This document shows, piece by piece, positions 9,529-58,522 of a stretch of DNA of 64,000 nt (position 1 is its first letter; each line of letters begins with the position of its first letter). The stretch spans positions 16,876-80,875 of the forward strand of contig JAMWCW010000007.1 in assembly GCA_023819145.1 (NCBI GenBank), in the 5' to 3' direction. The translations under genes and the position numbers were made by a program. The notes under the pieces are model-generated. The model ran no database searches and had not been told where the DNA came from. It saw only the letters and a list, made by a program, of their open reading frames with translations. Source of the DNA: Candidatus Omnitrophota bacterium (GTDB lineage: Bacteria; Omnitrophota; Gorgyraeia; DTHP01).

Positions 9529-10442
9529 CTTATCCTTTCACCTAAACGTAATTTGGCACTCCTTGCCCGCGAATTTTCTGAAATCTCATCACTTTCAGGT
9601 CTAATTGGCTTTTTGGTTAATATCTTAAACAATCCGTTTTTAGCTAACTGGATAAATTTATTCTTAACAATGCGGTCTTCTAAAGAATGAAAAGAGATAA
9701 TAACAATTCTTCCTCCCAAAGAAAGAAGATTGAAAAAATTATCAAGAAAATAAATAAGGTTATCCAACTCGTTATTAACCGCGATGCGTAAAGCTTGAAA
9801 AGTTCGTGTGGCAGGATGAATATGATAACTACGATAATTTTTAGGAAGTGCCCTCAAAATGATCTCTACCAGTTCTGTGGTAGTCTCTATATTCTTTCTT
9901 TTTCGCGCGATAACAATATTGTGGACAATTCTTCTTGCAAAGCGTTCCTGAGCGTTATGCTCCAATATTTTCACTAACCCATCTTCATCCATGTAATTGA
10001 CTAAGTCAAATGCCTTAAGCCTCTGGGTTTCGTCCATACGCATGTCCAATGGTCCACCTGAACGAAAGCTAAATCCCCGTCTGCGGTCTGAAAGCTGATA
10101 TGAAGAAATACCCAAATCAAGTAGAAAACCATCCACTTTCTTTATATGTAAATCTTCTATTATTTTACTAATATCTTTAAAATTCCCCTGAACTAATTTA
10201 AAAGAACCGCTGTATTTTTTTAATCTCTCTTCTGTAATAGAGAAAATATTTCGATCGAGGTCAATTCCTATCAAGAAGCCACCCGGTAATATTTTCCTCA
10301 AAATTTCCTCCGCATGTCCACCGCTTCCTATAGTGCAATCAACGATAGTTTTACCCGGAGAAAGATTAAGATTTTCTATGACTTCTCTCAACAAAACGGG
10401 CTTATGCAAGAAATATTTCTCTGAACCATCATCTCCTATCAT
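9525..10442 (-). CDS. rsmH: 16S rRNA (cytosine1402-N4)-methyltransferase RsmH (MraW)
   Basis: HKPVLLREVIENL and SAM-MTase motifs. The ORF track extends the ORF to 10547, overlapping mraZ by 70 nt. The internal ATG at 10440-10442 (MIGDDGSEKYFLHKPVLL...) gives a normal-length N-terminus and a 35-nt gap to mraZ. Confidence 0.85.
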   Translation of the reverse strand: MIGDDGSEKYFLHKPVLLREVIENLNLSPGKTIVDCTIGSGGHAEEILRKILPGGFLIGIDLDRNIFSITEERLKKYSGSFKLVQGNFKDISKIIEDLHIKKVDGFLLDLGISSYQLSDRRRGFSFRSGGPLDMRMDETQRLKAFDLVNYMDEDGLVKILEHNAQERFARRIVHNIVIARKRKNIETTTELVEIILRALPKNYRSYHIHPATRTFQALRIAVNNELDNLIYFLDNFFNLLSLGGRIVIISFHSLEDRIVKNKFIQLAKNGLFKILTKKPIRPESDEISENSRARSAKLRLGERIR

Positions 10443-15592: not shown

Positions 15593-16480
15593 TCAAGGCC
15601 TGGGATGAAACATTTTGTGTATCGACTTGAGCCTTTCTTTATTTACATGAGTATAAATCTGAGTAGTAGAGATATTTGCATGGCCTAACATCTCTTGAAC
15701 CACCCTCAAATCTGCACCGCGTTCTAAAAGATGTGTTGCGAAAGAATGTCTTAGAGTATGTGGACCAACCTTCTTCTTAATTCCTGCCCGTAGAACATAT
15801 TTTTTAATCATTTTCCATATGCTCTGCCGAGAAATCTTCTTACCCAGGTGAGATAAAAAGAGAAACGGCTCACTATTTTTCTTAATCATCTTTGGCCTTA
15901 TCTCTAACAGATAATTTCTTAAATACCTTATTGCAGTCTTTCCCACAGGAACAATTCTTTCTTTCTCACCTTTACCTTTACAACGCACAAAACCTCCTTC
16001 TAGATTAATATCGCTAATCCTCAAATCGGCTACTTCAGAAACCCGCATTCCTGTGGCATAGAGAAGTTCAAGACATGTTTTATCTCTGAAACCTATAGGA
16101 GTATTTGTGCGAACAGAGTTTAGAACTTTTTCTACCTCAGCAACAGAAAGACTTTCCGGAAGCCTTTTCCACAACCGCGGCGTCTCTAAAACCGCAGTAG
16201 GGTCATCTCTTATAATTCCCTCTTGGGCAAGAAATCTAAAAAACATTTTTAACGCTACTAACTCCCGCGCTATCGAAGAAGGATTTATTCCTTTTTCTCT
16301 TCTCTTAAATAAGAAATTGTCTATATCTCTGCGAGAAACCTTATCCCAAGAAATGATGCCTCCATCAGAAAGATATTTTTTAAATATTTTAAGATCTCTT
16401 CTATAAGAAGCTATTGTGTTATCTGCTAAACTTCTTTCCACATTGAGATAATTCAAAAACTGTTCAATCCATTCTTCCAT
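15593..16480 (-). CDS. xerD: site-specific tyrosine recombinase XerD/XerC
   Basis: 295 aa. C-terminal HTLRHSFATHLLERGADLRVVQEMLGHANISTTQIYTHV (R-H-R-Y catalytic box). Confidence 0.85.
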   Translation of the reverse strand: MEEWIEQFLNYLNVERSLADNTIASYRRDLKIFKKYLSDGGIISWDKVSRRDIDNFLFKRREKGINPSSIARELVALKMFFRFLAQEGIIRDDPTAVLETPRLWKRLPESLSVAEVEKVLNSVRTNTPIGFRDKTCLELLYATGMRVSEVADLRISDINLEGGFVRCKGKGEKERIVPVGKTAIRYLRNYLLEIRPKMIKKNSEPFLFLSHLGKKISRQSIWKMIKKYVLRAGIKKKVGPHTLRHSFATHLLERGADLRVVQEMLGHANISTTQIYTHVNKERLKSIHKMFHPRP

Positions 16481-17082: not shown

Positions 17083-20305
<3,223 letters not shown>

Positions 20306-20341
20306 CTTTCAATTAAACTTCAAGCTCTAAACTATCACTTT

Positions 20342-20620
20342 TTAATAAAATCTTATTTCAAAATCCCTATATTCGTCTATTGAGTCGAGCCATTTTAATT
20401 CTACATTTTTTATATATTTATCGAAATAGTTCTTTAACTTATCTAAGAAATTCCTTAACTTTCCTTCCTCACCTTCTACTTCCAGTTCTACCCGTCCATC
20501 ATTCAAATTCCTTACCCAGCCAACGAGTCCCAGCTCTAAAGCAAAACTTTCTGCAGTAAAACGGAAACCTACCCCCTGAACCTTTCCTGAATAAAACACA
20601 TGAATCCTTTTCTTTGCCAT
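20342..20620 (-). CDS. acyP: acylphosphatase
   Basis: 92 aa. VQGVGFR signature and GWVRNLNDGRVE. Confidence 0.85.
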   Translation of the reverse strand: MAKKRIHVFYSGKVQGVGFRFTAESFALELGLVGWVRNLNDGRVELEVEGEEGKLRNFLDKLKNYFDKYIKNVELKWLDSIDEYRDFEIRFY

Positions 20621-20977
20621 AATTTCTTATTTATCACCCCCTTAGAAAGCTATTTTTATTATAACTAAATTGAATTTCCGGTCAACTTAAAAGTATTAAA
20701 ATTATATAGATAAGATAAATAAAAAGGAGGTAAATGGTGACTCATTAAGAATATTTATAAAATAAAAAATAACTCCGTAAAAGTATATATTCAACCTTCT
20801 CCTAACTCTGTAACTTTAAGATTCCTATAATTACCAAAAAAATCGGCAATTCGTAAACCCTAGATTTGCCAGTGTGGATAATAAAACCGCACCTCAATTT
20901 TTACAATATTCTTTTAGCCTTACAAGAGATGCAAAATTTTCGGCGATTTTTCCAACATGGATTTCTGTGGTGGCAGA

Positions 20978-22735
20978 TCAATTCCCTAAAAGCGCTTTTT
21001 CTACTTTGGGATATAATTTATCAATTCCTTTTTGCAATTCTATAGTATGTGATAATGCAGCAATAACTTTAAGAAAATGGGCAATATCATCATCGCTTAA
21101 AACTCTATCTTCTCTTTCTTTGAGCCATTTATCCAAGACCTGATAGCCGCCAATATAATAATTCCAGACCTCTTTAGCGACGCCAGAAAAATATTGCTTA
21201 TCGTTAATATATATCCTTTCTTCTTTTTCTTTGTATTCTCTCTTTTCAACTTTGCAGCCGTCTTTCGCTGGAAATTTTGCGATTGATTTATCCAATTTCT
21301 TGGACTTGAGCAAATGCAATTCTACTAACTCTTTGCCCAGGCCTGCCATTTCCTTAAAAACTTCAACATCTTTGGTAAAAGGAATGCGCGGAAAATCTGT
21401 CTTTAAAAATTCCGCATATTTTGCGCGGTAAGTGTTTGCGTAAAGAATAGCGTAAATATAATAGAAGATTTCTTCTGGCTTTGGCTCCTTTTTAAAAGCG
21501 TCGCATAAAATTTTTAATAATTCTTTGCTAAGGTTCGGGCTCTTTATTTCACCGGCAATAGCAAATAAATCCTTTTTGTCGCTATCAGGATAAAGATAAA
21601 GAGGGAATAAATAACCACTTCCATATTTTCCAGCTGTACCGGTAGAATTAAGGTCGGCAATCTGATCTGTAACTAAAGCGTGTCTAAACCCGCCCTGCGC
21701 TTGCCTGGAAGTTAACAATCCTAAATTCTCTTGCATCATATGCCGCATCACTTCTTTTCTTGAGCGCTCAATTACCGCGTCATGATAGAACAAATAACGG
21801 ATATCAAAGGGACGGTAGAGGCATTTAACTATATTTTTATCCAGATCCTCAATCCTTCTAATTTCTTCCCGCGCTTTTGCGATTTTCCATCTGGGGTTTT
21901 CCTTTATATTGTAGGTAGCTTTTAGCAAATCATCGCTTAAGCCCTTTCCTCTTAATGCCTCTATGCGTTGACGTAAGTTTCGCTTTTCGAAATCAAATAC
22001 CAAATTATCCCGGGAGGTAACAATCCCCACGCTGTTTACTGCAAAAATGTCGGTTATTTTCCAGAAAGACAGGTATTGCTTTTCCTGCTTTTCGCTGCGC
22101 GGCACAAAGAAATACATCTCAGGTTTTGGCGCTAAGGTCCTCCATTTTGTTGATGCCGCATCGTTATCTTCCAGCCACTGGTATTTCTTCTCTCTTACTC
22201 CCCACAAATCCGCATAATAAACCTTATTGCCCCTGGCGCCTGATTCTTTGATAAAGATGGCGATTGCCACTCCCTGCTGTATATCAAAAACATTCTCGTC
22301 TTTTGAGCCGTCAGGGCATTTTTCTTTCTTCAAGCTGTTGCCATGTAAATCCAGGATATAAATCTCATTAAAGGTCTTTATTAATGACTGCCGCATTCCT
22401 CTAAAGGTAGGGTTATCTAAATAACTGTGGTTGGTAATAAAAGCCAGAATCCCCTGCCCTGCTTTTTCAATTTTCCACTGCCCAAAGCGGATAAATTTAA
22501 CATAATCATCTTGCAGCCATTTAGGATTTCTTTCCCTTAAGGGTTTGCCGTCTACTTTCTTATAATCCTCAATTAAATTGGTAATCCAATCTCCGATATT
22601 TTTGGAGTGTCCCGAATAAGGAGGATTTCCCATAATTACTAAAATCGGTACCTCGCCTTTTATTTTTTTTGCCTCAATTGCCTCCTCAGATAATGCGGCA
22701 ACATAAGGCTCAACTGCCTGAGTTATTTCGCGCAA
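20978..22735 (-). CDS. MmeI-like Type IIL restriction-modification enzyme, C-terminal fragment (N6-adenine MTase motif IV NPPY plus target-recognition domain). Frame continues upstream to 22792.
   Basis: MGNPPYSGHS (motif IV). C-terminal YIGGYQVLDKWLKEREDRVLSDDDIAHFLKVIAALSHTIELQKGIDKLY, typical of the MmeI/YeeA-family TRD end. The ORF-track start is a TTG. The same frame is open upstream to a stop at 22793-95. Confidence 0.75.
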   Translation of the reverse strand: MREITQAVEPYVAALSEEAIEAKKIKGEVPILVIMGNPPYSGHSKNIGDWITNLIEDYKKVDGKPLRERNPKWLQDDYVKFIRFGQWKIEKAGQGILAFITNHSYLDNPTFRGMRQSLIKTFNEIYILDLHGNSLKKEKCPDGSKDENVFDIQQGVAIAIFIKESGARGNKVYYADLWGVREKKYQWLEDNDAASTKWRTLAPKPEMYFFVPRSEKQEKQYLSFWKITDIFAVNSVGIVTSRDNLVFDFEKRNLRQRIEALRGKGLSDDLLKATYNIKENPRWKIAKAREEIRRIEDLDKNIVKCLYRPFDIRYLFYHDAVIERSRKEVMRHMMQENLGLLTSRQAQGGFRHALVTDQIADLNSTGTAGKYGSGYLFPLYLYPDSDKKDLFAIAGEIKSPNLSKELLKILCDAFKKEPKPEEIFYYIYAILYANTYRAKYAEFLKTDFPRIPFTKDVEVFKEMAGLGKELVELHLLKSKKLDKSIAKFPAKDGCKVEKREYKEKEERIYINDKQYFSGVAKEVWNYYIGGYQVLDKWLKEREDRVLSDDDIAHFLKVIAALSHTIELQKGIDKLYPKVEKALLGN

Positions 22736-22769
22736 ATCGAGGGTATTGGTTAGATAAAGTGAAAAACGG

Positions 22770-24059
22770 TCATCTTTTTTGAAATTTATAACCTAAATCT
22801 TCTAGAAGCAACGATATTTTAAGATGTCCTATAATATAGGGCGCCATTAACAACTCAAAGGCATAGAAATTTTTCAAGACATGATTTTTAATTATTTGCT
22901 GCCAAGCTCCCGCCATTTTTCCCTTAAAAACCTCTTCCTTAACCAATAAAATCGCCTGAGCTAAAAAGGTGAGTGTTCCTGCAGCGGGGTCTAAAAGCGT
23001 AACAGTTTTATCCGCAAAACCGTCTCTCTTGTTAAATTTTTTCTTTAGTAGTATATTTATTGACCGTGTAATATAAGAAACAACTGGAAGCGGGGTATAA
23101 TATACACCTCTTGCTTCTCTTTTTTGGGGGTCATACTCAGCTAAAAATGTTTCGTAGAAATGCATTAAGGGGTCACCGCCTTTTTGGCGATGTAAATCCT
23201 GTCTAATTTTTTCTATATCGCAGTGGGCTAAAATCGTGGCGATATCATCCAAAATCCAGGTTATGGATTCAGGTAAAGCTGAACTTGAAATAAGAGAAAA
23301 AGTATCATGAAAAATATGGATATTTTTGGGGATATATTCGGAAGCTATAAAACGGCTAAAGTCTTTGCCTTGATATTGAAGCCGTGCAGTAAATAATCCA
23401 TAAGTTATAGTCTGAGCATAAATATCCGCAAAATCCTCTTTTGATAAATCCGGAATCAAATATTTCCTAAAGGCTTCATAAATCCTGTCTATCTCAGTAA
23501 TTTCTTGGTTGTTTAGCTCTTCAATAATATAAGAAGGCAAGAGCTGGGCCTTCTGAGCTAATTCTTCTGCTAAAGACTTCGCTGACTTTAATTCAGGGAT
23601 GTTGTATGAAAAGAAGGTATCAAGGAGCTTAAAGAAATCTTCCCCGTTGTCTGGCGGTGGCGCTGTTTTTAATTTTTTAAGAATTGACGGTTGACCAATC
23701 CTAACTTCTTTTACGACCTTACCACTCCTAAAAAGATGAAGATCTAAAAAGTTAGTTAAAATAAAATTTGGCAATCGAGCCCTGTAGCGCTCAATCTGTT
23801 CTGTATCATAAACATCGGTTAAATTGGTTAAGGTTAAATCTTTGGCTTCTATATAACCAATTAGTTCTTTGCCATTTCGTATTGTAAAATCGGGTTTTCC
23901 TGCCTTTGTTCTTCTTGCTTCAATTGTAATAGAAGGTTTTTTATTCTTAAAATTTAGATAGTTTTCTAATAATTTCTTTAAAGCAGAATAATAACTGGCT
24001 TCTGTGGCATCACCAGCTTTAAAAGTTTTTGTAATGTCTTCGAGATATTCTTTAAGCAT
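22770..24059 (-). CDS. MmeI-like Type IIL restriction-modification enzyme, N-terminal fragment (PD-ExK endonuclease domain plus MTase motifs X and I)
   Basis: GKPDFTIRNGKELIGYIEAKDL (PD...EAK nuclease motif, as in the MmeI N-terminus). RGVYYTPLPVVSYI (motif X). LLDPAAGTLTFL (motif I). Ends at TGA 22770-72 directly after an A6 tract. Confidence 0.75.
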   Translation of the reverse strand: MLKEYLEDITKTFKAGDATEASYYSALKKLLENYLNFKNKKPSITIEARRTKAGKPDFTIRNGKELIGYIEAKDLTLTNLTDVYDTEQIERYRARLPNFILTNFLDLHLFRSGKVVKEVRIGQPSILKKLKTAPPPDNGEDFFKLLDTFFSYNIPELKSAKSLAEELAQKAQLLPSYIIEELNNQEITEIDRIYEAFRKYLIPDLSKEDFADIYAQTITYGLFTARLQYQGKDFSRFIASEYIPKNIHIFHDTFSLISSSALPESITWILDDIATILAHCDIEKIRQDLHRQKGGDPLMHFYETFLAEYDPQKREARGVYYTPLPVVSYITRSINILLKKKFNKRDGFADKTVTLLDPAAGTLTFLAQAILLVKEEVFKGKMAGAWQQIIKNHVLKNFYAFELLMAPYIIGHLKISLLLEDLGYKFQKR

Positions 24060-24282
24060 TGTTTTTACTTATTATTCTTAATATTAATTATATAATAAAT
24101 ATATATTTAATTCCAAAATAAATCTTCGCCTAAAATAAAATTGGCAAGAAGTTAATGGCAAGTAAACACCGCAGGGACAATTGATATCTACAATGTCAGT
24201 GACTAAGCAATAAATTATATTTTAGTAGTTGTTTTTTCAAGATAAGTCAAAGTAGCGTTTAATAAGGATAATTGCTCATAGG

Positions 24283-24361
24283 TGGTCGGGGAGGACGGAC
24301 TTGAACCGTCGACCTCAGCGTCCCGAACGCTGCGCTCTAAACCAAACTGAGCCACTCCCCG
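24283..24361 (-). tRNA. tRNA-Pro (anticodon CGG)
   Basis: rc is CGGGGAGTGGCTCAGTTTGGTTTAGAGCGCAGCGTTCGGGACGCTGAGGTCGACGGTTCAAGTCCGTCCTCCCCGACCA. It folds as a 79-nt cloverleaf with a 7-bp acceptor stem, anticodon loop TTCGGGA, T-loop TTCAAGT and an encoded CCA. Confidence 0.9.
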
Positions 24362-24369
24362 GATTTGGG

Positions 24370-25107
24370 TTAGATAGTCAAAAGGTCTTTTAACCTTATG
24401 GCATTTTTTACGGCATAGCCGCAAGCATCATTATTAAAATAGGCATAAAGATCAATACCTTTTTCTATCCAGATTTTAGCCTTATCTACCCAAAATTTCA
24501 ACTCTTTTTCGGTATATTCTGAACCGTAAAGCGTTTTTCCTCCGTGAAAGCGTAGATATATAAAGTCACTGGTAACAATCTCAACCATCGGCCAAAATGG
24601 TGAATGGGCAATACATAAAGAAAAATTGTAATTCCTTAAAAGAGTATATACTTCCTCATTGAACCATGAGGAATGGCGAAATTCAAAAGCATAACGGATT
24701 TTATATCCCGAAATATCTTTACAAAATTTTTCTAATCTTTTAATATCTAATTTCATGTCCGGAGGAAATTGCCATAAAACTATTCCCAATTTTTCTTTCA
24801 GTTCTTTAAGTAGATTAAACAATTTTAGAAGATCATCATTAATACCATTGAGTTTCTTTACATGGGTAATATATCTTGAACCTTTAACAACGAATACGAA
24901 ATCCTTGGGAGTTTTCTTATACCAATTTTCAAATGTGCTTCTCCGCGGAAGACGATAGAAAGTAACATTTAATTCTACAGTGTTAAAGAATTTAGAGTAA
25001 TATTCTAACCATTTATTCTCTCGGAGCCCTTCAGGATAAAACAAACCATCTCCCCAGTGAGCATAGCTATAACCACTTGTTCCAATAAAAACCCTTCCCT
25101 TTTTCAC
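24370..25107 (-). CDS. DUF72 (YecE-like) family protein
   Basis: 245 aa. N-terminal IGTSGYSYAHW...FYP motif characteristic of DUF72. Confidence 0.75.
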   Translation of the reverse strand: MKKGRVFIGTSGYSYAHWGDGLFYPEGLRENKWLEYYSKFFNTVELNVTFYRLPRRSTFENWYKKTPKDFVFVVKGSRYITHVKKLNGINDDLLKLFNLLKELKEKLGIVLWQFPPDMKLDIKRLEKFCKDISGYKIRYAFEFRHSSWFNEEVYTLLRNYNFSLCIAHSPFWPMVEIVTSDFIYLRFHGGKTLYGSEYTEKELKFWVDKAKIWIEKGIDLYAYFNNDACGYAVKNAIRLKDLLTI

Positions 25108-25117
25108 TTTATAAAAT

Positions 25118-25756
25118 TTATAAAAAACCGTGCTCTCTAAGAAATCCTTCGCTTAAGTGTTCACCTTTTTTTTTCGTAAGAATTTTATTCACATATTTTG
25201 CAAAAATATCTATTTCAATATTCAAATAATCACCAATATTTTTAAAACCAAGTGTAGTATTCTCTGCGGTGTGAGGAATAATATTTACTGAAAAATAACT
25301 GTTTTCTATTTCTACTATCGTCAAACTTACTCCATCTAAAGAAATTGAACCTTTAGGAACAAGATAATCTAATATCTCTTTATTTGTATCCACAAATAAA
25401 GATATTCCACTTTCTTCTTTAATCTTCTTTAAAATTTTACCCATTCCATCTACGTGTCCTAAAACGATATGCCCACTTAAAAAAGAATCGAGCTTTAATG
25501 CCCTCTCTAAATTAACCTTTTCTTTTACTTTAAGCATTCCTAAGTTTGTACGCTTTAAAGTCTCTCCGATACAATCAAAAATTAATTTATCTTTTTTTGT
25601 CTCCACAATTGTTAAGCATACGCCATTTACTGAAACACTATCTCCAACTTTTAATGTGGTAATAATTTTCTCAGCCTTTATCTCTAATTTAAAAAAACTA
25701 TCCTTTTTCAAAATTTTATCCACTGAACCCAATTCCTCAATTATTCCTGTAAACAT
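25118..25756 (-). CDS. ribE: riboflavin synthase (alpha subunit)
   Basis: 212 aa. MFTGIIEELGSV N-terminus and internal duplication typical of riboflavin synthase. Confidence 0.9.
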   Translation of the reverse strand: MFTGIIEELGSVDKILKKDSFFKLEIKAEKIITTLKVGDSVSVNGVCLTIVETKKDKLIFDCIGETLKRTNLGMLKVKEKVNLERALKLDSFLSGHIVLGHVDGMGKILKKIKEESGISLFVDTNKEILDYLVPKGSISLDGVSLTIVEIENSYFSVNIIPHTAENTTLGFKNIGDYLNIEIDIFAKYVNKILTKKKGEHLSEGFLREHGFL

Positions 25757-30345: not shown

Positions 30346-30406
30346 ATTTTATCAAAAACAGGTTTGTTTGTCAAGCCTTGACAGAAATAAAAATTTTTGC
30401 TATATT
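30346..30406. promoter_or_regulatory. divergent sigma70-type promoters sharing a palindromic -35 region (TGTCAAGCCTTGACA)
   Basis: Minus strand: TTGACA (rc of 30369-74), 17 nt, then TAAAAT (rc of 30346-51), driving the riboswitch and rib operon. Plus strand: TTGACA (30378-83), 17 nt, then TATATT (30401-06), driving the GGDEF gene. Confidence 0.55.
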
Positions 30407-30429
30407 TATATAACTTTATTTGTCCCCTT

Positions 30430-31629
30430 ATGGAAAAAGAGATTCAAGAAAATATTGAGCTGTTTAAGAAAGAGCTGGATAAAGCAAAAACGGAACTATC
30501 TATCCTCTATGAGATAGGCAACGCTATGCATTCCACACTCAACCTTGATGAAATTCTCTATATAATACTTACTGCAGCAACTGCCCATACTGGACTCGGT
30601 TTTAACCGCGCAATGCTTTTTATGGTCAATGAAAAAGAAAATTTGCTTGAAGGACGTATGGGCATAGGACCGCAGTCAGGTGAAGAGGCATATCACATTT
30701 GGAAAAAGATTGAAACAGAAAAAATGGACCTTAATGATTTCATTGAAGCATATAAAGAGTTTTCTGTCCAGAAGGATTCTCCTTTGAACAATCTCGTAAA
30801 AACCATAAAAATTCCTTTAAGAGAAGATGGAGGAATCCTTGCTGTGACAGTAATAAAAGGCTCTCCTTCCCTTATAAATACTCCTGAAGCGAGGGCAAAA
30901 ATAAACGATGTTGCACTCTCCTTGTTAAAAGTTGACCAATTTGTGGTGGTGCCGCTTAAGGCAAAAGATAAGGCAATAGGGGTAATTCTGGCAGACAATT
31001 TTATAACGCGAAAACCCATTAACCAGGATGATTTGCGTCTTCTAAGTATGTTTGCTAACCAGGCAGGTTTAGCAATTGAAAACTCACGTTTATATGAACA
31101 GACTCTCATCCTCTCTAATACCGACTATCTTACACATCTCTGGAATCATGGTTATTTTCAGCAGTTGATGAATGAAGAAATAAAGAAATCTTCTGCAAAC
31201 AAAACATCAATAAGTCTTATTATGCTCGATATAGATGATTTCAAAAACTACAATGATACACTTGGTCATCAAGCGGGAGACAAAGTCCTTCAAGAAATAG
31301 GAGATATAATCCGGCAAAATGTACGTAGAAATGACTGGGCATGTAGATACGGAGGTGAGGAATTTGCTATAATTTTACCCCAAATAAGTAAAGAAGATAC
31401 ACTCAAATTTGCGGAGAGATTGAGGAATCAAATTGAATTACATAAATTCCCTCATGAAGAAGTACAACCGAAACAGAAAATCACCGTAAGTATAGGTATA
31501 GCTACCTTTCCTGCAGATGCTTCTAACAAAGATGAATTGATTTACAAAGCAGATATGGCTATGCTCGAGGCTAAGAAAAAAGGGAGGAATCGTACTTGTC
31601 TATATTTTCCTCAGTCAATGTCTCAGTAA
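30430..31629 (+). CDS. GAF domain-containing diguanylate cyclase (GGDEF)
   Basis: Active-site RYGGEEF with an I-site-like RRND five residues upstream. N-terminal GAF-like region. The ORF track starts at 30397, but the predicted -10 (30401-06) lies inside that extension, so ATG 30430 (MEKEIQ…) is the more likely start. Confidence 0.8.
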   Translation: MEKEIQENIELFKKELDKAKTELSILYEIGNAMHSTLNLDEILYIILTAATAHTGLGFNRAMLFMVNEKENLLEGRMGIGPQSGEEAYHIWKKIETEKMDLNDFIEAYKEFSVQKDSPLNNLVKTIKIPLREDGGILAVTVIKGSPSLINTPEARAKINDVALSLLKVDQFVVVPLKAKDKAIGVILADNFITRKPINQDDLRLLSMFANQAGLAIENSRLYEQTLILSNTDYLTHLWNHGYFQQLMNEEIKKSSANKTSISLIMLDIDDFKNYNDTLGHQAGDKVLQEIGDIIRQNVRRNDWACRYGGEEFAIILPQISKEDTLKFAERLRNQIELHKFPHEEVQPKQKITVSIGIATFPADASNKDELIYKADMAMLEAKKKGRNRTCLYFPQSMSQ

Positions 31630-31642
31630 TAATAAACTTAAT

Positions 31643-34600
31643 TTAATTTTTCCTTGCCTCGACTTTAGTATTTTCAGAAACATCAGAAAATTTTACAGAA
31701 ACAAGTTTAGAAACCCCTGATTCTTCCATCGTCACTCCATACATAACGTCAGCAACCGCTATTGTTTTTTTATTGTGCGTAATAACAATAAATTGTGACG
31801 TTTTAGAAAATTCCTTCATCAACATACGGAAACGGTCAATATTAGACTCATCCAGGGGCGCATCTACTTCATCAAGGATACAAAAAGGACTGGGTTTTAC
31901 TTTAAAAATAGCAAAAAGCAAGGCTACAGCAGTCAAGGCCTTCTCTCCTCCAGAAAGGAGATTTATATTCTGCAACTTTTTACCTGGTGGCTGAGCAATA
32001 ATTTCTATCCCTGACTCTAAAACATTCTCAGGTTCCAAAAGGAACAACTGAGAATTTCCTCCACCGAAAAGAAGACGGAAAATCTCTTTGAAGTTTACCC
32101 CTATCTTCTGAAACGTATCAATAAACATTTCCTTCGCCGTATGATTAATACGATTAATTGCCTCGTGCAAGGATTCCTTAGCTTTCAGCAAATCTGACTG
32201 TTGGTTAAGAAGAAAACTGTGTCTTTCCTGAAGTTGTCCAAACTCTTCGATGGCAATAAGATTAACTGGGCCAAGTGATAAAAGCTTATCTTGTAATGAA
32301 CTTATTTCTTCTTTCAAAATATGTTCATCAAAATCTTCCGCTGTAAAATCTACCTTTGCTGTCTCTAAATTAATTTTATAATTACTTTCTATTTTCTGGA
32401 GAATATCTCTCTTATCAAAATCTATACCTTGCATTTTTATCTCCAACTCATGAATTCCATTTTTTATCTTATCCAAGCTCTTCTGCATTGTTCCCAAGCT
32501 ATCTTCTTCTTCTTCTATCTCATTCTTAAAATAATTTTTCTTTGCATTTAAATCATCTAATTTCTTTACACTATTTTCAATCTCTTTATTAAAAACACCT
32601 TTCTCCTTCTCAAGAGAGGAAATCTCTTCATTCAAGAGTTTAATTTTTTCAAGATTAATATTTCTTTCCTCTAATCTTGTTAAAAACATTCTCTCTGTTT
32701 CAGCAACAGAGTTTTCCAAGGAATAAATCCTCTCGTTAAGAAGCGTTGCCTTCTCACTGTACGAATTTAAACTCGATTCAAGCTCTGTAATCTCCAATAA
32801 AGTCTTTTCCCTTAAAGCATTTCTATCTTCAAGATTACGCGTCGTTTCTTCTAAGAGCCGTTGTATTTCTGACTCTCTCAACTCTAAATCCTTTAGTCTA
32901 TTTTCACTCTCCTTTATCTTGCCATCGCGCGAATTGACCTCCTCACGCGATTCTTCAATTTCTAAATCTACAATTCCTAATTCGTCCTTTACTCTTCCTA
33001 AATCTTTTCCTATCCTTTCAACCTCTTGGTTTAGATTGCTCAACTCAATCTCAATTAAGTGTTTCTCCTCTTCTTTGTTGACCAACTCCTCTTTGGTCTG
33101 ATTCAACGTTAGGGATAAACTTTCTTTATCCTGGGAAAGTTTATCCTTTTCTTTACCCAAACTAACTAATTCCAATTTTAAATCCTCAATCTTTCTACGA
33201 CGCCCAATGATAGAGGTATCCTCGTCTATAGAAACATAAGCGGTTTTGATAAAATTGTCTCTCATAACATCCCCTTGGCAAGTAACTAAGCATAAAGATA
33301 AATCTCCTCTTTCTCTCTTAAGCCCAATTCCTTCCTCCAAATTATTCACTAAAACGGTATTTGAAAACAAATAAGAGAGTACAATTTCATAAGGAACGAG
33401 GCGGACAAAGTTAATTAAATAACTAAACTTGCCTTCGATATTTAATGAAGAAACAACATTTTTTTCTATGTCCTCAAGAACAAGAAAGTTCACTCCACCT
33501 AAGTTGTGTTCTCTTATATAATCTAAACAGAGTGACAAACTTCTGTAGTCTTTAATTAAGATTGCCTGAGCATTCTCACCCAGAACGGCTTCCACCGCTT
33601 TCTCATAACCCTTATCCACTTCAAGCATTTCTGCCAAAGGTCCAATTATCGCTGCTTCTCCTAATGCACCATTTTTATATGCTAAAATCAAGGATTTTAC
33701 TCCCGGAGAATACCCTTCATAATGTGCTTCCATCTCTTTCATCAAATCGATGCGTGAAGCGAGTGTATTATATTCCACCTCTTTCTTCTGAAGTTCTCCA
33801 GTTAAATCATCCAGGTCCTTATTTAATTTCCCTATCCGATTATCTAATTCCTCTATATCTTTAACTTTATTATATAGAACTAATTTCTTATCCTCTAAAA
33901 TTTGGCAACGTTGGGTATATAAACTATCAAGTTTACCTTTCTCTTCATCAGCCTTAGCTTTTTCTAATTCCAAACGGCGGAGGCGTGCTTGAAAAGACGA
34001 AATCTCTGTCTTTAGCTTCGTCAGCTCATTTCTTACTCTTGCCATTCCCTGATTAACATCCATAAGTTGAAGTCGGTAATTACTAATCAAAGATTCTCCT
34101 TCTTTTATCTGTTGATTTAGTGAATTCAATAAATCCTGTTTGTTTTTGAGCAGATTTTTCTTTTCCTCTTCATCCTTACAAAAATCATCAAATTGAACTT
34201 TCAGTTCTGTGAGCATTCTCCTCTCGTTGTCTCTTTTTTCCTCTAATCTCTTATTTTCCTCGACAAGGACGATATTTCTTTCCTCTAACTCTTTAATGCG
34301 TTCACTATCAAGCATAATCTTTGATTGGTTCTTTTCTAACGAAGCTTCAAGGTAAGCCTTTCTGCTCTCCTCTGAAGAAATCTCTTTTTCTAAAGATTCG
34401 AGCTTTTCTCGTCTTTCTTTCAACCGCTCTTCTCCGGAAGATAAATCTCTTAAGATTTTTTCTTCTTCTTTTTGTAAAGCTTCTTTTTCTTTAAGCAGTG
34501 CTTCCTTCTTACCCTCCAATTGAAGCATAAGGGATTTACTATATTTTAATTCTTTGTCTTTTAATATATTAAAAATCTCCTGATACCGTTCCGCTTTTCT

Positions 34601-35227
34601 TGCCTGACGTTCAAGTGAAGAAAGTTGCCTGCTTACTTCACTGATTATATCGTTAACCCTTATTAAATTATTTTCTGTATCTTCCAATTTTCTCAAAGCC
34701 TCTTTTTTTTGAGATTTAAATTTGGTGATTCCTGCTGCTTCCTCAAATATGAAACGTCGATCCTCCCCTCGTGAACTCAAAACCAAGTCAATCTTACCCT
34801 GTTCAAGCAGAGAATAGGAACTTGTTCCTATACCTGTACCAAAGAATAATTCCTGGATATCTTTAAGACGAACGGGAACTTTATTGAGTAAATATTCTGA
34901 TTCTCCGGAACGAAAAAGCCGCCGAGTAACGGTAATCTCTGCATATTCTATAGGGAAAATTTTATCCTCATTGGAAAGGGTTAAAGAAACCTCGGCAAAA
35001 TTAACTGGCTCCTTGATGCTAGTCCCATTAAAGATAACATCTTCCATCCTGGAACCACGTAATTCCCGAGGATTCTGTTCTCCTAAGACCCACTTTATTG
35101 CATCCGAAATATTGCTTTTTCCACAACCATTAGGACCAACAATGGCGGTAATCCCCGGTTCGAATTTCAATACTGTCTTTTCAGCAAACGACTTAAAACC
35201 ATATAATTCTATGGATTTGAAATACAT
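31643..35227 (-). CDS. smc: chromosome segregation protein SMC
   Basis: 1194 aa. Walker A (GPNGCGKSN) at the N-terminus. Long coiled coils and a hinge. C-terminal signature LSGGEKALTAVALLFA and Walker B ILDEVDAPLD. Confidence 0.93.
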   Translation of the reverse strand: MYFKSIELYGFKSFAEKTVLKFEPGITAIVGPNGCGKSNISDAIKWVLGEQNPRELRGSRMEDVIFNGTSIKEPVNFAEVSLTLSNEDKIFPIEYAEITVTRRLFRSGESEYLLNKVPVRLKDIQELFFGTGIGTSSYSLLEQGKIDLVLSSRGEDRRFIFEEAAGITKFKSQKKEALRKLEDTENNLIRVNDIISEVSRQLSSLERQARKAERYQEIFNILKDKELKYSKSLMLQLEGKKEALLKEKEALQKEEEKILRDLSSGEERLKERREKLESLEKEISSEESRKAYLEASLEKNQSKIMLDSERIKELEERNIVLVEENKRLEEKRDNERRMLTELKVQFDDFCKDEEEKKNLLKNKQDLLNSLNQQIKEGESLISNYRLQLMDVNQGMARVRNELTKLKTEISSFQARLRRLELEKAKADEEKGKLDSLYTQRCQILEDKKLVLYNKVKDIEELDNRIGKLNKDLDDLTGELQKKEVEYNTLASRIDLMKEMEAHYEGYSPGVKSLILAYKNGALGEAAIIGPLAEMLEVDKGYEKAVEAVLGENAQAILIKDYRSLSLCLDYIREHNLGGVNFLVLEDIEKNVVSSLNIEGKFSYLINFVRLVPYEIVLSYLFSNTVLVNNLEEGIGLKRERGDLSLCLVTCQGDVMRDNFIKTAYVSIDEDTSIIGRRRKIEDLKLELVSLGKEKDKLSQDKESLSLTLNQTKEELVNKEEEKHLIEIELSNLNQEVERIGKDLGRVKDELGIVDLEIEESREEVNSRDGKIKESENRLKDLELRESEIQRLLEETTRNLEDRNALREKTLLEITELESSLNSYSEKATLLNERIYSLENSVAETERMFLTRLEERNINLEKIKLLNEEISSLEKEKGVFNKEIENSVKKLDDLNAKKNYFKNEIEEEEDSLGTMQKSLDKIKNGIHELEIKMQGIDFDKRDILQKIESNYKINLETAKVDFTAEDFDEHILKEEISSLQDKLLSLGPVNLIAIEEFGQLQERHSFLLNQQSDLLKAKESLHEAINRINHTAKEMFIDTFQKIGVNFKEIFRLLFGGGNSQLFLLEPENVLESGIEIIAQPPGKKLQNINLLSGGEKALTAVALLFAIFKVKPSPFCILDEVDAPLDESNIDRFRMLMKEFSKTSQFIVITHNKKTIAVADVMYGVTMEESGVSKLVSVKFSDVSENTKVEARKN

Positions 35228-55120: not shown

Positions 55121-57475
<2,355 letters not shown>

Positions 57476-57479
<4 letters not shown>

Positions 57480-58522
57480 ACTATCAACATGGCATCGCCA
57501 TAGGAGTAAAAGCGATATCTCTTCTCAATCGCCTCCTGATAGGCCTTTCTCCAGACAGCCGAACCGCAAAAGGCGGCAATGAGCATCAAAAGCGTGGATT
57601 TGGGGAAATGAAAATTGGTTAAAAGCATATCGGTCAGTTTAAAATCGTAGGGAGGATAGATAAAGAGACTAGTGTAGCCCTGTATTTCTTGTGGAAGCCA
57701 GAAGCCAGAAGTCTTAAGTTGACATGCTACTGTTTCCAGAACACGGCAGGAAGTAGTACCCACGGCTATGATCTTTCTACCTTTCTTCTTAGTATCTGAA
57801 ATAATCCTTGCCGTCTCTATAGGAAATTCATAATATTCTTTGTACATCTTGTGGGCTTCGATATTTTCTTCCTTTACCGGCTTAAAGGTGGCATAGTTTA
57901 CATGCAATGTTACATAGGCAATATTTATTCCCTTATTCATAATTTGTTGGAGTAAGTCTTGCGTAAAATGCAGGCCGGCAGTAGGGGCAGCTACTGCGCC
58001 CTCTTTCCGAGCATAAACGGTCTGATACCTTGTTCTGTCCAGCTCAACCGATTTTCTCTTTATATATGGCGGCAGGGGAATATCTCCTGATTTCTCAAGC
58101 GCTTCGTTCAAATCTCCAGAACTTTTGAATTTCAATATTGCAAAACCTTGACCGTCTTTTTCTATCAGCTCTGCGCGTAGTCCATCACCGCTAAAGACAA
58201 TTGCCTCTCCCAAAGAAAACTTTCTCGCCGGTTTCAATAAAGTCTTAAAGGTGTCCTCTTTTATCCTCTCCAACAAAAAAACTTCCACCTTTCCTGAGGT
58301 TTTTTCTCTCAAACCGAATAACCTGGCTGGAATGACCTTGGTGTCGTTTAACACCAAAGTATCACCTTCTCTAAAGCACTGGGTTATGTCGCTAAATTTA
58401 CTGTGGGAAATTTTCCCAGAGGAACGTTCCAAAACAAGCAGACGCGAATCGTCGCGCCTATCAAGCGGAAACTGAGCAATCAATTCTTTGGGTAAATGAT
58501 AATCAAACTCAGAAATATGCAT
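57476..58522 (-). CDS. queA: tRNA preQ1(34) S-adenosylmethionine ribosyltransferase-isomerase QueA
   Basis: 348 aa. MHISEFDYHLPKELIAQFPLDRRDDSRLLVL. Confidence 0.92.

What the first reader, a model, noticed from the sequence alone, without database searches (positions are those of the whole stretch)
20621..24370. Compositionally distinct RM insert next to tRNA-Pro(CGG), likely a small horizontally acquired island
The RM coding region appears visibly richer in G+C than the neighbouring housekeeping genes (inspection only, not computed). It is bracketed by very AT-rich non-coding stretches (20621-20977 and 24060-24282). It sits immediately 3' of tRNA-Pro (24283..24361), a classic integration hotspot, between the rib operon and the ligA-acyP operon. 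No integrase, transposase or obvious direct repeat of the tRNA 3' end was found, so the mobilising machinery may have been lost.
Basis: partly seen in the sequence, partly recalled or inferred. Interest (0 to 1): 0.5.

Follow-up and report, generated by a model that had tools for sequence, protein, structure and literature searches.

The report
Broken restriction gene beside tRNA-Pro
A 3.6-kb stretch found only in this Omnitrophica lineage sits directly after a proline tRNA gene and carries one phage-defence (restriction-modification) gene that a single extra A has split in two; this is an ordinary accessory gene in a variable genome slot.

Summary
The region holds one gene, not an operon. It encodes a 1026-aa single-chain Type IIG/IIL restriction-modification enzyme of the DrdV/MmeI kind. 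One extra A in an A-run (22775-22780) splits it into ORFs of 429 and 585 aa. Apart from that, the gene looks intact.

Comparison with ten related Omnitrophota loci shows it is lineage-specific. Nucleotide similarity stops at the 3' end of tRNA-Pro(CGG) (24283-24286). It resumes 39 nt upstream of acyP (20659). The same slot elsewhere holds a permease, a different RM system, uvrA, queA, small genes, or nothing.

The compositional argument mostly fails:
- Insert GC is 0.357 against 0.361 for the window.
- Codon usage is in range (z +1.4).
- The AT-rich flanks are normal intergenic DNA for this genome.
- Only GC3 of the C-terminal ORF, the tetranucleotide signature and the GC skew are mildly unusual. 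The core SMC gene is just as deviant in signature. The low skew is shared by homologues in other hosts.

There is no integrase, transposase or repeat of the tRNA end.

Verdict: a real horizontally acquired single-gene cassette in a variable slot, apparently inactivated. It is a known kind of thing and of low interest.

The parts
24283..24361 (-). tRNA-Pro(CGG), CCA encoded. Its 3' end is the proximal boundary of the lineage-specific segment.
   Evidence: ARAGORN and Rfam RF00005, 64.1 bits. Alignments with L089, L090, L092 and L093 lose similarity right after the discriminator base or CCA.
20660..24282 (-). Whole lineage-specific segment of 3,623 bp: one RM gene plus its own non-coding flanks.
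   Evidence: blastn against relatives aligns window 25200..24283-24298 and 20659..20250 only. Nothing in between aligns. GC is 0.357.
24060..24282 (-). 223-nt AT-rich leader (GC 0.251) upstream of the RM start codon. It contains a sigma-70-like promoter match at 24116..24087 (TTGGAA-18-TATAAT, 10 of 12).
   Evidence: RM homologue loci L094 and L002 share nucleotide similarity up to 28-60 nt upstream of the ATG. No Rfam match and no coding remnant.
22770..24059 (-). N-terminal ORF of 429 aa. It carries the PD-(D/E)XK nuclease motif (KPDF...IEAKD), a helical connector and methyltransferase motif I (LLDPAAGTLTF). It ends at a TGA created by the frameshift.
   Evidence: N6_Mtase; alignment with DrdV 7lo5 and LlaBIII; motif conservation.
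22775..22780 (-). A6 homopolymer, the site of the frame break. Removing one A restores a continuous 1026-aa reading frame.
   Evidence: The closest homologue L001 has A5 here and is in frame. The ruler gives 22780..22775. The coordinates printed are off by one.
20978..22792 (-). C-terminal reading frame, open from 22792 and listed as a 585-aa ORF from a TTG at 22735. It carries methyltransferase motif IV (GNPPYSGHS) and the Type ISP C-terminal specificity (target recognition) domain.
   Evidence: (Type_ISP_C, E 3.2e-90; Eco57I). Identical to the NCBI protein P0009, 'hypothetical protein NC818_04790, Candidatus Omnitrophica'.
20660..20977 (-). 318-nt non-coding tail of the insert (GC 0.292). 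No gene remnant, RNA family or tRNA-derived repeat was detected.
20621..20659 (-). Conserved acyP leader with its ribosome-binding site. Synteny with relatives resumes here.
   Evidence: L093 and L008 align from here through acyP and the phosphoesterase at 76% nucleotide identity.
20658..20685 (-). Sigma-70-like promoter match (TTGACC-16-TATAAT, 11 of 12) straddling the junction between insert and core. It is a candidate promoter for acyP-phosphoesterase-ligA.
   Evidence: This is a consensus match only. The total number of such matches in the region does not exceed shuffled controls.

Best explanation
The segment 20660-24282 is a lineage-specific, horizontally acquired single-gene cassette. 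It occupies a variable slot between the 3' end of tRNA-Pro(CGG) and the acyP-phosphoesterase-ligA gene cluster of a Candidatus Omnitrophica genome.

What the gene is. The cargo is one Type IIG/IIL restriction-modification gene of the DrdV/MmeI/BBQ67 kind. [quoted passage not shown]

How it would work when intact (inferred from family knowledge). Such an enzyme binds a short asymmetric site. It methylates one adenine on one strand to protect host DNA. It cuts unmodified incoming DNA at a fixed distance, once several enzyme-bound sites come together.

Present state. In this assembly a one-base insertion (A5 to A6 at 22775-22780) separates methyltransferase motif I from motif IV. As written, the gene should yield neither methylation nor restriction. 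Because both activities lie on one chain, they are lost together, so the loss is harmless to the cell. The inactivation is recent, because nothing else in the gene has decayed.

How it arrived (inferred, less certain). The most likely route is recombination into a slot that is repeatedly remodelled in this clade. A resident tRNA-targeting integrase is the less likely route.
For: Gene identity:
- Pfam gives N6_Mtase, Eco57I and Type_ISP_C (E 3.2e-90).
- The PADLOC model REase_MTase_IIG scores E 4e-278.
- The match to PDB DrdV 7lo5 spans residues 6-984 (E 3.5e-51). Matches to LlaBIII and LlaGI cover only their methyltransferase and recognition parts.
- The nuclease motif aligns with that of DrdV.
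- The best 120 homologues listed, out of about 8,000 scored, are single chains of about 1020-1085 aa. The only exception is this genome's own 585-aa fragment.
- Plasmid-borne relatives occur in Borrelia at 37% identity over 99% of the length. That family is experimentally bifunctional (10.1101/375352).

Frameshift:
- The two ORFs are in different frames. Deleting one A gives 1026 aa without a stop.
- The closest homologue has A5 at that spot.
- The repaired protein departs from 340 conserved columns at only 2. The median for homologues is 4.

Insertion:
- Similarity with L089, L090, L092 and L093 ends at 24283-24298. Similarity with L093 and L008 resumes at 20659.
- The slot holds different contents in different genomes:
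  - L093 and L008: an amino-acid permease-EIIA fusion.
  - L089: an XRE-HTH protein plus an N4/N6 methyltransferase.
  - L092: uvrA.
  - L090 and L091: queA.
  - L007: a CBS protein.
  - L011: a rubrerythrin-like protein.
  - L004 and L036: nothing.
- RM homologues at 60-85% identity lie in unrelated contexts.
- Nucleotide similarity to those homologues covers the gene plus at most 60 nt upstream.

No mobility signature:
- Searches found none.
- The only integrase-family gene nearby (15593-16480) is a XerC/D-type gene kept in the same position in relatives.
Against: - G+C and codon usage match the host. The acquisition is therefore either not recent or came from a donor of similar composition.
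- The nearest relatives available are only 81-88% identical in LigA and RibBA. The timing and direction of events rest on parsimony over about ten loci.
- Several relatives' contigs end inside the slot (L089, L092), so their full content is unknown.
- Relatives might carry the RM gene elsewhere in their genomes. This could not be searched.
- The frameshift could be an assembly error. A sibling MAG from the same series has its SMC gene split.
- The break exactly at a tRNA 3' end is also what an old integrase-mediated event would leave.
Confidence: 0.72

Rival explanations
1. This is a classic tRNA-targeted genomic island. An integrase-bearing element integrated into the 3' end of tRNA-Pro. The integrase and the distal att repeat were later deleted, leaving only the RM cargo.
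For: The proximal boundary coincides with the tRNA 3' end to within 0-3 nt in four comparisons. A second, unrelated RM system starts after the same tRNA in L089. RM-plus-integrase units integrated into tRNA genes are documented (PMC2853133).
Against: No integrase or transposase gene or remnant was found by tblastx or blastn of the flanks. No repeat of the tRNA 3' end above the shuffled expectation was found. Only 541 nt of non-coding DNA is left in which remnants could hide. The same boundary is also used by ordinary chromosomal genes and rearrangements, namely uvrA, queA-tgt and a permease. That fits a general breakpoint at the end of a transcription unit.
Confidence: 0.13
2. The RM gene is ancestral at this position in the clade and was lost or replaced independently in the relatives. 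On this reading it was never inserted in this lineage.
For: G+C, codon usage and the AT-rich flanks are indistinguishable from the host's. RM genes are often lost.
Against: None of about ten related loci has it at this site. The two outgroup loci L004 and L036 have tRNA-Pro and acyP 30-58 nt apart. The nearest homologues lie in other contexts. This reading needs many independent clean losses against one gain.
Confidence: 0.08
3. The frameshift is an assembly or consensus artefact. The organism carries an intact, active Type IIL enzyme.
For: The defect is a single base in a homopolymer. Every catalytic motif is intact, and the repaired protein differs from the family consensus at only 2 of 340 conserved columns. 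A sibling MAG has a split SMC gene, which suggests occasional frameshift errors in this dataset.
Against: In the roughly 20 kb of the window that can be compared gene by gene with L093 and L090, no other gene is split. The public record also annotates the 585-aa fragment. Frameshifts in homopolymers are a common real way for RM genes to be inactivated. This last point rests on general knowledge and was not tested here.
Confidence: 0.25
4. The A-run is a switch. Phase variation by tract-length change, or +1 slippage by the ribosome or RNA polymerase on CAA-AAA-AGA-TGA, yields full-length enzyme in some cells or at a low level.
For: A +1 slip of tRNA-Lys on AAA-A would restore the consensus sequence QKDDRF. 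The zero-frame stop follows two codons later.
Against: The tract is only 6 nt. Homologues have A5, A6 or no run at this spot and are in frame. No conserved stimulatory element was seen. Among the 120 best-scoring homologues listed, the only split copy is this genome's own fragment.
Confidence: 0.04

Closest known systems
DrdV, a Type IIL single-chain RM enzyme of Deinococcus (PDB 7LO5/7LVV)
   Same: It is collinear over almost the full length (query 6-984 against DrdV 13-978, E 3.5e-51). The size is the same (1026 against 1029 aa). The domain order is the same: nuclease, connector, methyltransferase, recognition domain. The PD...E-x-K and NPPY motifs align. The DrdV paper (10.1101/2021.01.06.425610) describes one-strand adenine methylation of an asymmetric site and cleavage that needs several bound sites.
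   Different: It is only a distant sequence relative. The recognition sequence here is unknown. The gene here is interrupted by a frameshift. Activity has not been tested.
Borrelia burgdorferi BBE02/BBQ67 plasmid-borne bifunctional RM enzymes
   Same: There is a full-length match of 37% identity over 99% of the query to the lp56 gene BB_RS07690. The equation of that gene with bbq67 is my inference. That family has been shown to supply m6A methylation and a restriction barrier from one polypeptide (10.1101/375352).
   Different: The Borrelia genes sit on linear plasmids and are intact. This one is chromosomal, next to a tRNA gene, and frameshifted.
[quoted passage not shown]
   Same: The methyltransferase and the C-terminal specificity domain (Pfam Type_ISP_C) are shared, with matches of E 4e-54 and 3e-48. 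Databases often label this family 'type ISP restriction/modification enzyme'.
   Different: Only residues 300-979 align, to LlaBIII 847-1522. The RecA-like ATPase/translocase module that defines Type ISP is absent. The N-terminus is a short MmeI/DrdV-type nuclease. The 'type ISP' label is therefore a misnomer for this protein.
RM systems as mobile units, and substitutions at tRNA-adjacent or variable loci (Furuta, Abe and Kobayashi 2010, PMC2853133)
   Same: An RM gene is present in one genome and replaced by unrelated genes at the same locus in relatives. Two different RM systems occupy the same site in sibling genomes.
   Different: None of the signatures catalogued there is present: no long or short target duplication, no flanking inverted repeats and no linked integrase or transposase.

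Membership tests
Type IIG/IIL single-chain RM enzymes (MmeI/DrdV-like) | N-terminal PD-(D/E)XK nuclease domain | tested here: met
   KPDF-x12-IEAKD aligns with the nuclease motif of DrdV and is conserved across homologues.
Type IIG/IIL single-chain RM enzymes (MmeI/DrdV-like) | N6-adenine methyltransferase with AdoMet-binding motif I and catalytic NPPY motif IV | tested here: met
   LLDPAAGTLTF and GNPPYSGHS are present. Pfam gives N6_Mtase and Eco57I.
Type IIG/IIL single-chain RM enzymes (MmeI/DrdV-like) | C-terminal target-recognition domain in the same protein, with no separate S or M subunit | tested here: met
   Type_ISP_C scores E 3.2e-90. No neighbouring RM gene is present.
Type IIG/IIL single-chain RM enzymes (MmeI/DrdV-like) | All domains on one uninterrupted polypeptide | tested here: not met
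   A frame break at the A6 run 22775-22780 separates motif I from motif IV. By descent the gene belongs to the family, but it is a pseudogene as assembled.
Type IIG/IIL single-chain RM enzymes (MmeI/DrdV-like) | One-strand m6A methylation of an asymmetric site and cleavage at a fixed distance | not testable with these tools
   This needs methylome data or biochemistry.
Type ISP RM enzymes (LlaGI/LlaBIII) | RecA-like ATPase/translocase domain between nuclease and methyltransferase | tested here: not met
   The alignment to LlaBIII starts at its residue 847. There is no helicase or ATPase Pfam hit, and the protein is about 550 aa shorter.
BREX PglX-type methyltransferase | Embedded in a brxA/B/C-pglX-pglZ-brxL operon | tested here: not met
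   The neighbours are a tRNA gene, DUF72 and acyP. The top PADLOC models are REase_MTase_IIG, not PglX.
Integrase-mediated tRNA-targeted genomic island | Located directly 3' of a tRNA gene and absent from related genomes | tested here: met
Integrase-mediated tRNA-targeted genomic island | Tyrosine or serine integrase gene (or a remnant) inside the island | tested here: not met
   The insert holds only the RM gene. tblastx of the flanks finds nothing. The XerC/D-like gene at 15593-16480 is a syntenic core gene.
Integrase-mediated tRNA-targeted genomic island | Direct repeat of the tRNA 3' end (attL/attR) at the distal boundary | tested here: not met
   The best alignment scores of 16-21 do not exceed the shuffled means of 18.5-19.9. 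The repeat finder gives only AT-rich chance pairs.
Integrase-mediated tRNA-targeted genomic island | Atypical base composition or codon usage | tested here: inconclusive
   GC and codon usage are in range. The tetranucleotide signature has z 2.9-3.8, but the core SMC region is equally deviant. The GC skew is atypical, but that is a family property.
Variable slot or defence hotspot between conserved core genes | Conserved flanks with different cargo in related genomes, including defence genes | tested here: met
   There are seven different occupants plus two empty sites, and two of the occupants are RM systems. Non-defence genes also occupy the slot, so it is not defence-specific.
Phase-variable RM gene | Long simple-sequence tract whose length varies within the population | tested here: inconclusive
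   The tract is only A6, with A5, A6 or no run in homologues. Population variation cannot be tested without reads.

The most novel reading that the evidence does not exclude
The frame break may be a switch rather than decay. On this reading, the A-run followed by AGA-TGA lets a fraction of ribosomes or transcripts shift +1, or lets the tract length vary in the population. Cells would then carry a low or heterogeneous dose of an otherwise perfectly preserved single-chain RM enzyme. The enzyme would sit in an integrase-free slot after tRNA-Pro(CGG) that this Omnitrophota clade reuses for swapping defence genes.
Probability: 0.05. Interest if true: 0.45.

Novelty: new member of a known kind. Interest (0 to 1): 0.2.

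Why it matters
It matters little beyond annotation.

- The two ORFs, one of them annotated 'hypothetical protein', should be merged into one frameshifted Type IIL RM pseudogene. The common 'type ISP' label does not fit this family.
- It gives a clean, base-resolved example of accessory defence cargo in a variable slot in Omnitrophota, a phylum known almost only from metagenomes. No mobility genes accompany it, and two different RM systems occupy the same tRNA flank in sibling genomes.
- It shows that G+C and codon usage can miss a real insertion that synteny reveals.

Tried and rejected
- I searched for a degenerate copy of the tRNA-Pro 3' end or its flank in 20621-20977 and 20300-21200, on both strands. 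Scores were no better than shuffles. The repeat finder gave only short AT-rich pairs.
- I looked for gene remnants in both non-coding flanks with tblastx and blastn against all 96 fetched loci and the rest of the window. Targets included the permease, integrases and the neighbours of RM homologues. Nothing significant turned up.
- One 38-nt match between 24210-24247 and L003 819-856 is inverted and AT-rich. I judged it to be chance.
- Rfam at a permissive threshold over 20300-24500 found only the tRNA.
- NCBIfam gave no hit for the repaired protein.
- Exact-sequence look-ups of the window's acyP, DUF72 and the 585-aa fragment found no record. For DUF72, which is listed with a GTG start, the likely cause is how the start codon is translated.
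- The metagenome scan with the phosphoesterase returned only distant relatives (47-65% identity) that did not inform the slot.
- I considered GC skew as a sign of foreign origin and set it aside. RM homologues in four other hosts show the same low coding-strand skew.
- I considered the XerC/D-like gene at 15593-16480 as the 'missing integrase' and rejected it. It is syntenic in relatives that lack the RM gene.
- I considered the BREX and Type ISP classifications and rejected both (see the membership table).

Full report
**Source and layout**

The window matches a Candidatus Omnitrophica metagenome-assembled genome. The 585-aa ORF is 100% identical to NCBI 'hypothetical protein NC818_04790', and the DUF72 protein is 100% identical to an entry from the same 85-kb contig.

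All genes around the finding lie on the minus strand. In transcription order they are:
- ribD
- ribE (25756-25118)
- DUF72 (25107-24370)
- tRNA-Pro(CGG) (24361-24283)
- a 429-aa ORF (24059-22770)
- a 585-aa ORF (22735-20978)
- acylphosphatase (20620-20342)
- a metallophosphoesterase (20305-19577)
- NAD-dependent DNA ligase (19572-17563)

**What the 'RM' is**

The two ORFs are one gene.
- The first carries methyltransferase motif I. The second carries motif IV (NPPY) and a Type ISP C-terminal specificity domain (E 3.2e-90).
- They are in different frames. The first ends at a TGA immediately after an A6 run at 22775-22780. The second frame is already open from 22792.
- Deleting one A gives an uninterrupted 1026-aa protein.
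- The closest homologue's DNA (L001, 83% nucleotide identity over 3,068 bp) has A5 at exactly this spot.
- The best 120 homologues listed, out of about 8,000 scored, are single chains of about 1020-1085 aa. The only exception is this genome's own fragment. They are spread across many phyla at about 52-56% identity, and a few metagenomic sequences reach 74-85%.

Classification:
- The repaired protein matches PADLOC's Type IIG REase-MTase models (E 4e-278).
- It aligns over nearly its whole length with the solved Type IIL enzyme DrdV (7LO5, residues 6-984, E 3.5e-51). The N-terminal PD...E-x-K nuclease motif is included in that alignment.
- It matches the Type ISP enzymes LlaBIII and LlaGI only in their methyltransferase and recognition parts. 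It lacks their ATPase module.
- Full-length plasmid-borne relatives include the Borrelia lp56 enzyme (37% identity). That family has been shown to be a bifunctional m6A methyltransferase and restriction enzyme (10.1101/375352).

State of the gene:
- Against 340 columns conserved in at least 93% of 78 homologues, the repaired protein differs at only two. The median for homologues is four.
- Apart from the single extra A, the gene is therefore in perfect condition.
- As assembled, the break separates motif I from motif IV. Neither methylation nor restriction is expected. This last step is inference.

**Composition**

Measures that are not unusual:
- The window has GC 0.361. Its 57 ORFs average GC 0.362 (sd 0.026) and GC3 0.300 (sd 0.038).
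- The C-terminal ORF has GC 0.389 and GC3 0.387 (z +1.0 and +2.3). The N-terminal ORF has 0.348 and 0.291 (z -0.5 and -0.2).
- The repaired gene has GC 0.372 and GC3 0.347. The whole 3,623-bp insert has GC 0.357. Windows of 3.6 kb range from 0.331 to 0.385.
- Karlin codon-bias distance from the other genes, corrected for length, is z +1.4.
- The flanking non-coding stretches have GC 0.289 and 0.251. Other intergenic regions here range from 0.16 to 0.40.

There is a GC3 peak in codons 500-800, and the 500-bp window 22001-22500 has GC 0.424 and ranks 4th of 128. The immediate neighbours are also unusually AT-rich.

Measures that do deviate:
- The tetranucleotide signature of the coding part has z +2.9 to +3.8 and ranks 1-5 of 183 windows. 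The only comparably deviant region is the core SMC gene.
- The GC skew is the least negative of all 3.6-kb windows. RM homologues in four other hosts show the same low coding-strand skew, so this is a property of the gene family.

Composition alone neither proves nor refutes foreign origin.

**Synteny, the decisive evidence**

Using LigA as a probe in one-genome-per-species contigs, and DUF72 homologues with their contigs, I collected related loci.

| Loci | Relationship to the window | Arrangement around the slot |
|---|---|---|
| L089, L090, L091, L092, L093 | close relatives, RibBA 85-88% identity | all keep ribBA-ribH-nusB-PHP-ribD-ribE-DUF72-tRNA-Pro(CGG) |
| L093, L008 | close relatives, LigA 81-84% identity | keep acyP-phosphoesterase-ligA and the downstream genes |

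- Nucleotide alignments between the window and these loci run through DUF72 and the tRNA and stop at 24283-24298.
- Alignments with L093 and L008 resume at 20659, which is 39 nt before the acyP start codon.
- Nothing between those two points aligns.

What occupies the slot elsewhere:

| Locus | Content between tRNA-Pro and the next core gene |
|---|---|
| L093, L008 | a 616-aa amino-acid permease-EIIA fusion |
| L089 | an XRE-type HTH gene plus an N4/N6 methyltransferase, i.e. a different RM system; the contig then ends |
| L092 | uvrA |
| L090, L091 | queA-tgt-yajC-secDF |
| L007 | a CBS-domain gene |
| L011 | a rubrerythrin-like gene |
| L004, L036 | nothing; tRNA-Pro is followed by acyP after 58 and 30 nt |

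- In the window, queA-tgt lie about 31 kb away at 55130-58522. The tRNA flank is therefore also a rearrangement breakpoint.
- DUF72 is present only in the closer clade. It is an older addition and not part of this insert.
- The nearest RM homologues sit in unrelated contexts: next to an ImmA/IrrE-type HTH-peptidase and DUF4411, next to unknown ORFs, or between an aminotransferase and small ORFs.
- Their nucleotide similarity to the window covers the gene plus at most 60 nt upstream. That stretch includes a promoter-like TTGGAA-18-TATAAT at 24116-24087.

Parsimony favours a gain in the window's lineage.

**How it got there**

- No integrase or transposase gene or remnant lies in the insert.
- The flanks hold no detectable coding remnants or RNA families.
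- No copy of the tRNA 3' end exists at the distal boundary.
- The XerC/D-like gene at 15593-16480 is a syntenic core gene.
- The exact break at the tRNA 3' end is compatible with an ancient integrase event. The same boundary is also used by ordinary chromosomal genes and rearrangements.
- I therefore prefer recombination into a recurrently remodelled slot at the end of a transcription unit. This preference is inferred, not shown.
- RM genes that replace one another at a locus without mobility genes are documented (PMC2853133). None of the repeat signatures catalogued there is present here.

**The frameshift**

- It may be a real recent inactivation, an assembly error, or, improbably, a switch.
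- In favour of a real mutation: no other gene in the roughly 20 kb comparable with relatives is split.
- In favour of caution: a sibling MAG has a split SMC gene.
- Only the reads can decide.

**Verdict**

The position, the tRNA, the flanks and the absence of mobility genes all hold. The G+C claim holds only locally and within the core range.
There is a real lineage-specific, presumably horizontally acquired single-gene RM cassette next to tRNA-Pro. It is not compositionally distinct in G+C or codon usage, and tRNA-targeted integration is not demonstrated.
- It is a new member of a well-known kind and of low general interest.

Noticed in passing
L089:9829-10719 (sibling Omnitrophica MAG GCA_023818555.1): A different RM system follows the same tRNA-Pro(CGG) 3' end: an XRE-type HTH gene at 10132-10335 and an N4/N6 DNA methyltransferase from 10339 to the contig end. 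Two unrelated RM systems therefore use this flank in sibling genomes.
   Followed up: partly
L089:1-2915: The SMC gene is split into overlapping ORFs of 811 and 385 aa in this sibling MAG. It is about 1195 aa and intact in the window (31643-35227), in L090 and in L093. This suggests occasional frameshift errors in that MAG series, which bears on the RM frameshift.
   Followed up: no
window 55130-58522: queA, a 390-aa ORF and tgt lie here. In L090 and L091 the same three genes follow tRNA-Pro directly, so the tRNA 3' flank is also a rearrangement breakpoint in this clade. queA (57476-58522) has the highest GC3 in the window at 0.436.
   Followed up: partly
window 20658-20685 (minus strand): The best promoter-like match in the region (TTGACC-16-TATAAT, 11 of 12) straddles the junction between insert and core at 20659/20660. 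The acyP-phosphoesterase-ligA genes may be driven by a promoter whose -35 box lies in insert-specific DNA.
   Followed up: no
window 24370-25107, compared with L004, L036 and L007: DUF72 sits between ribE and tRNA-Pro only in the window and its close clade (L089-L093). More distant relatives have ribE followed directly by tRNA-Pro. This is a separate, older insertion on the other side of the tRNA.
   Followed up: partly
window 1-64000: Of the 57 ORFs of at least 92 aa, 56 are on the minus strand. The only exception is the GGDEF-type gene at 30397-31629. The + strand GC skew is negative almost throughout, which indicates an extreme gene-strand bias on one replichore.
   Followed up: no
L001:3160-4816: The closest RM homologue (85% identity) is followed by an HTH_3-Peptidase_M78 (ImmA/IrrE-like) gene and a DUF4411 gene. 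I recall this pair from mobile and defence regions. It is absent from the window.
   Followed up: no
window 24283-24288, compared with L089, L090, L092 and L093: The tRNA-Pro gene encodes its 3' CCA in the window and in L089 but not in L092, L093 or L090. Sequence divergence among the genomes begins exactly at that point.
   Followed up: no
window 24210-24247, compared with L003:819-856: A 38-nt, 82% identical, inverted match links the stretch just 3' of the tRNA to the region upstream of acyP in L003. It is AT-rich and probably chance.
   Followed up: partly
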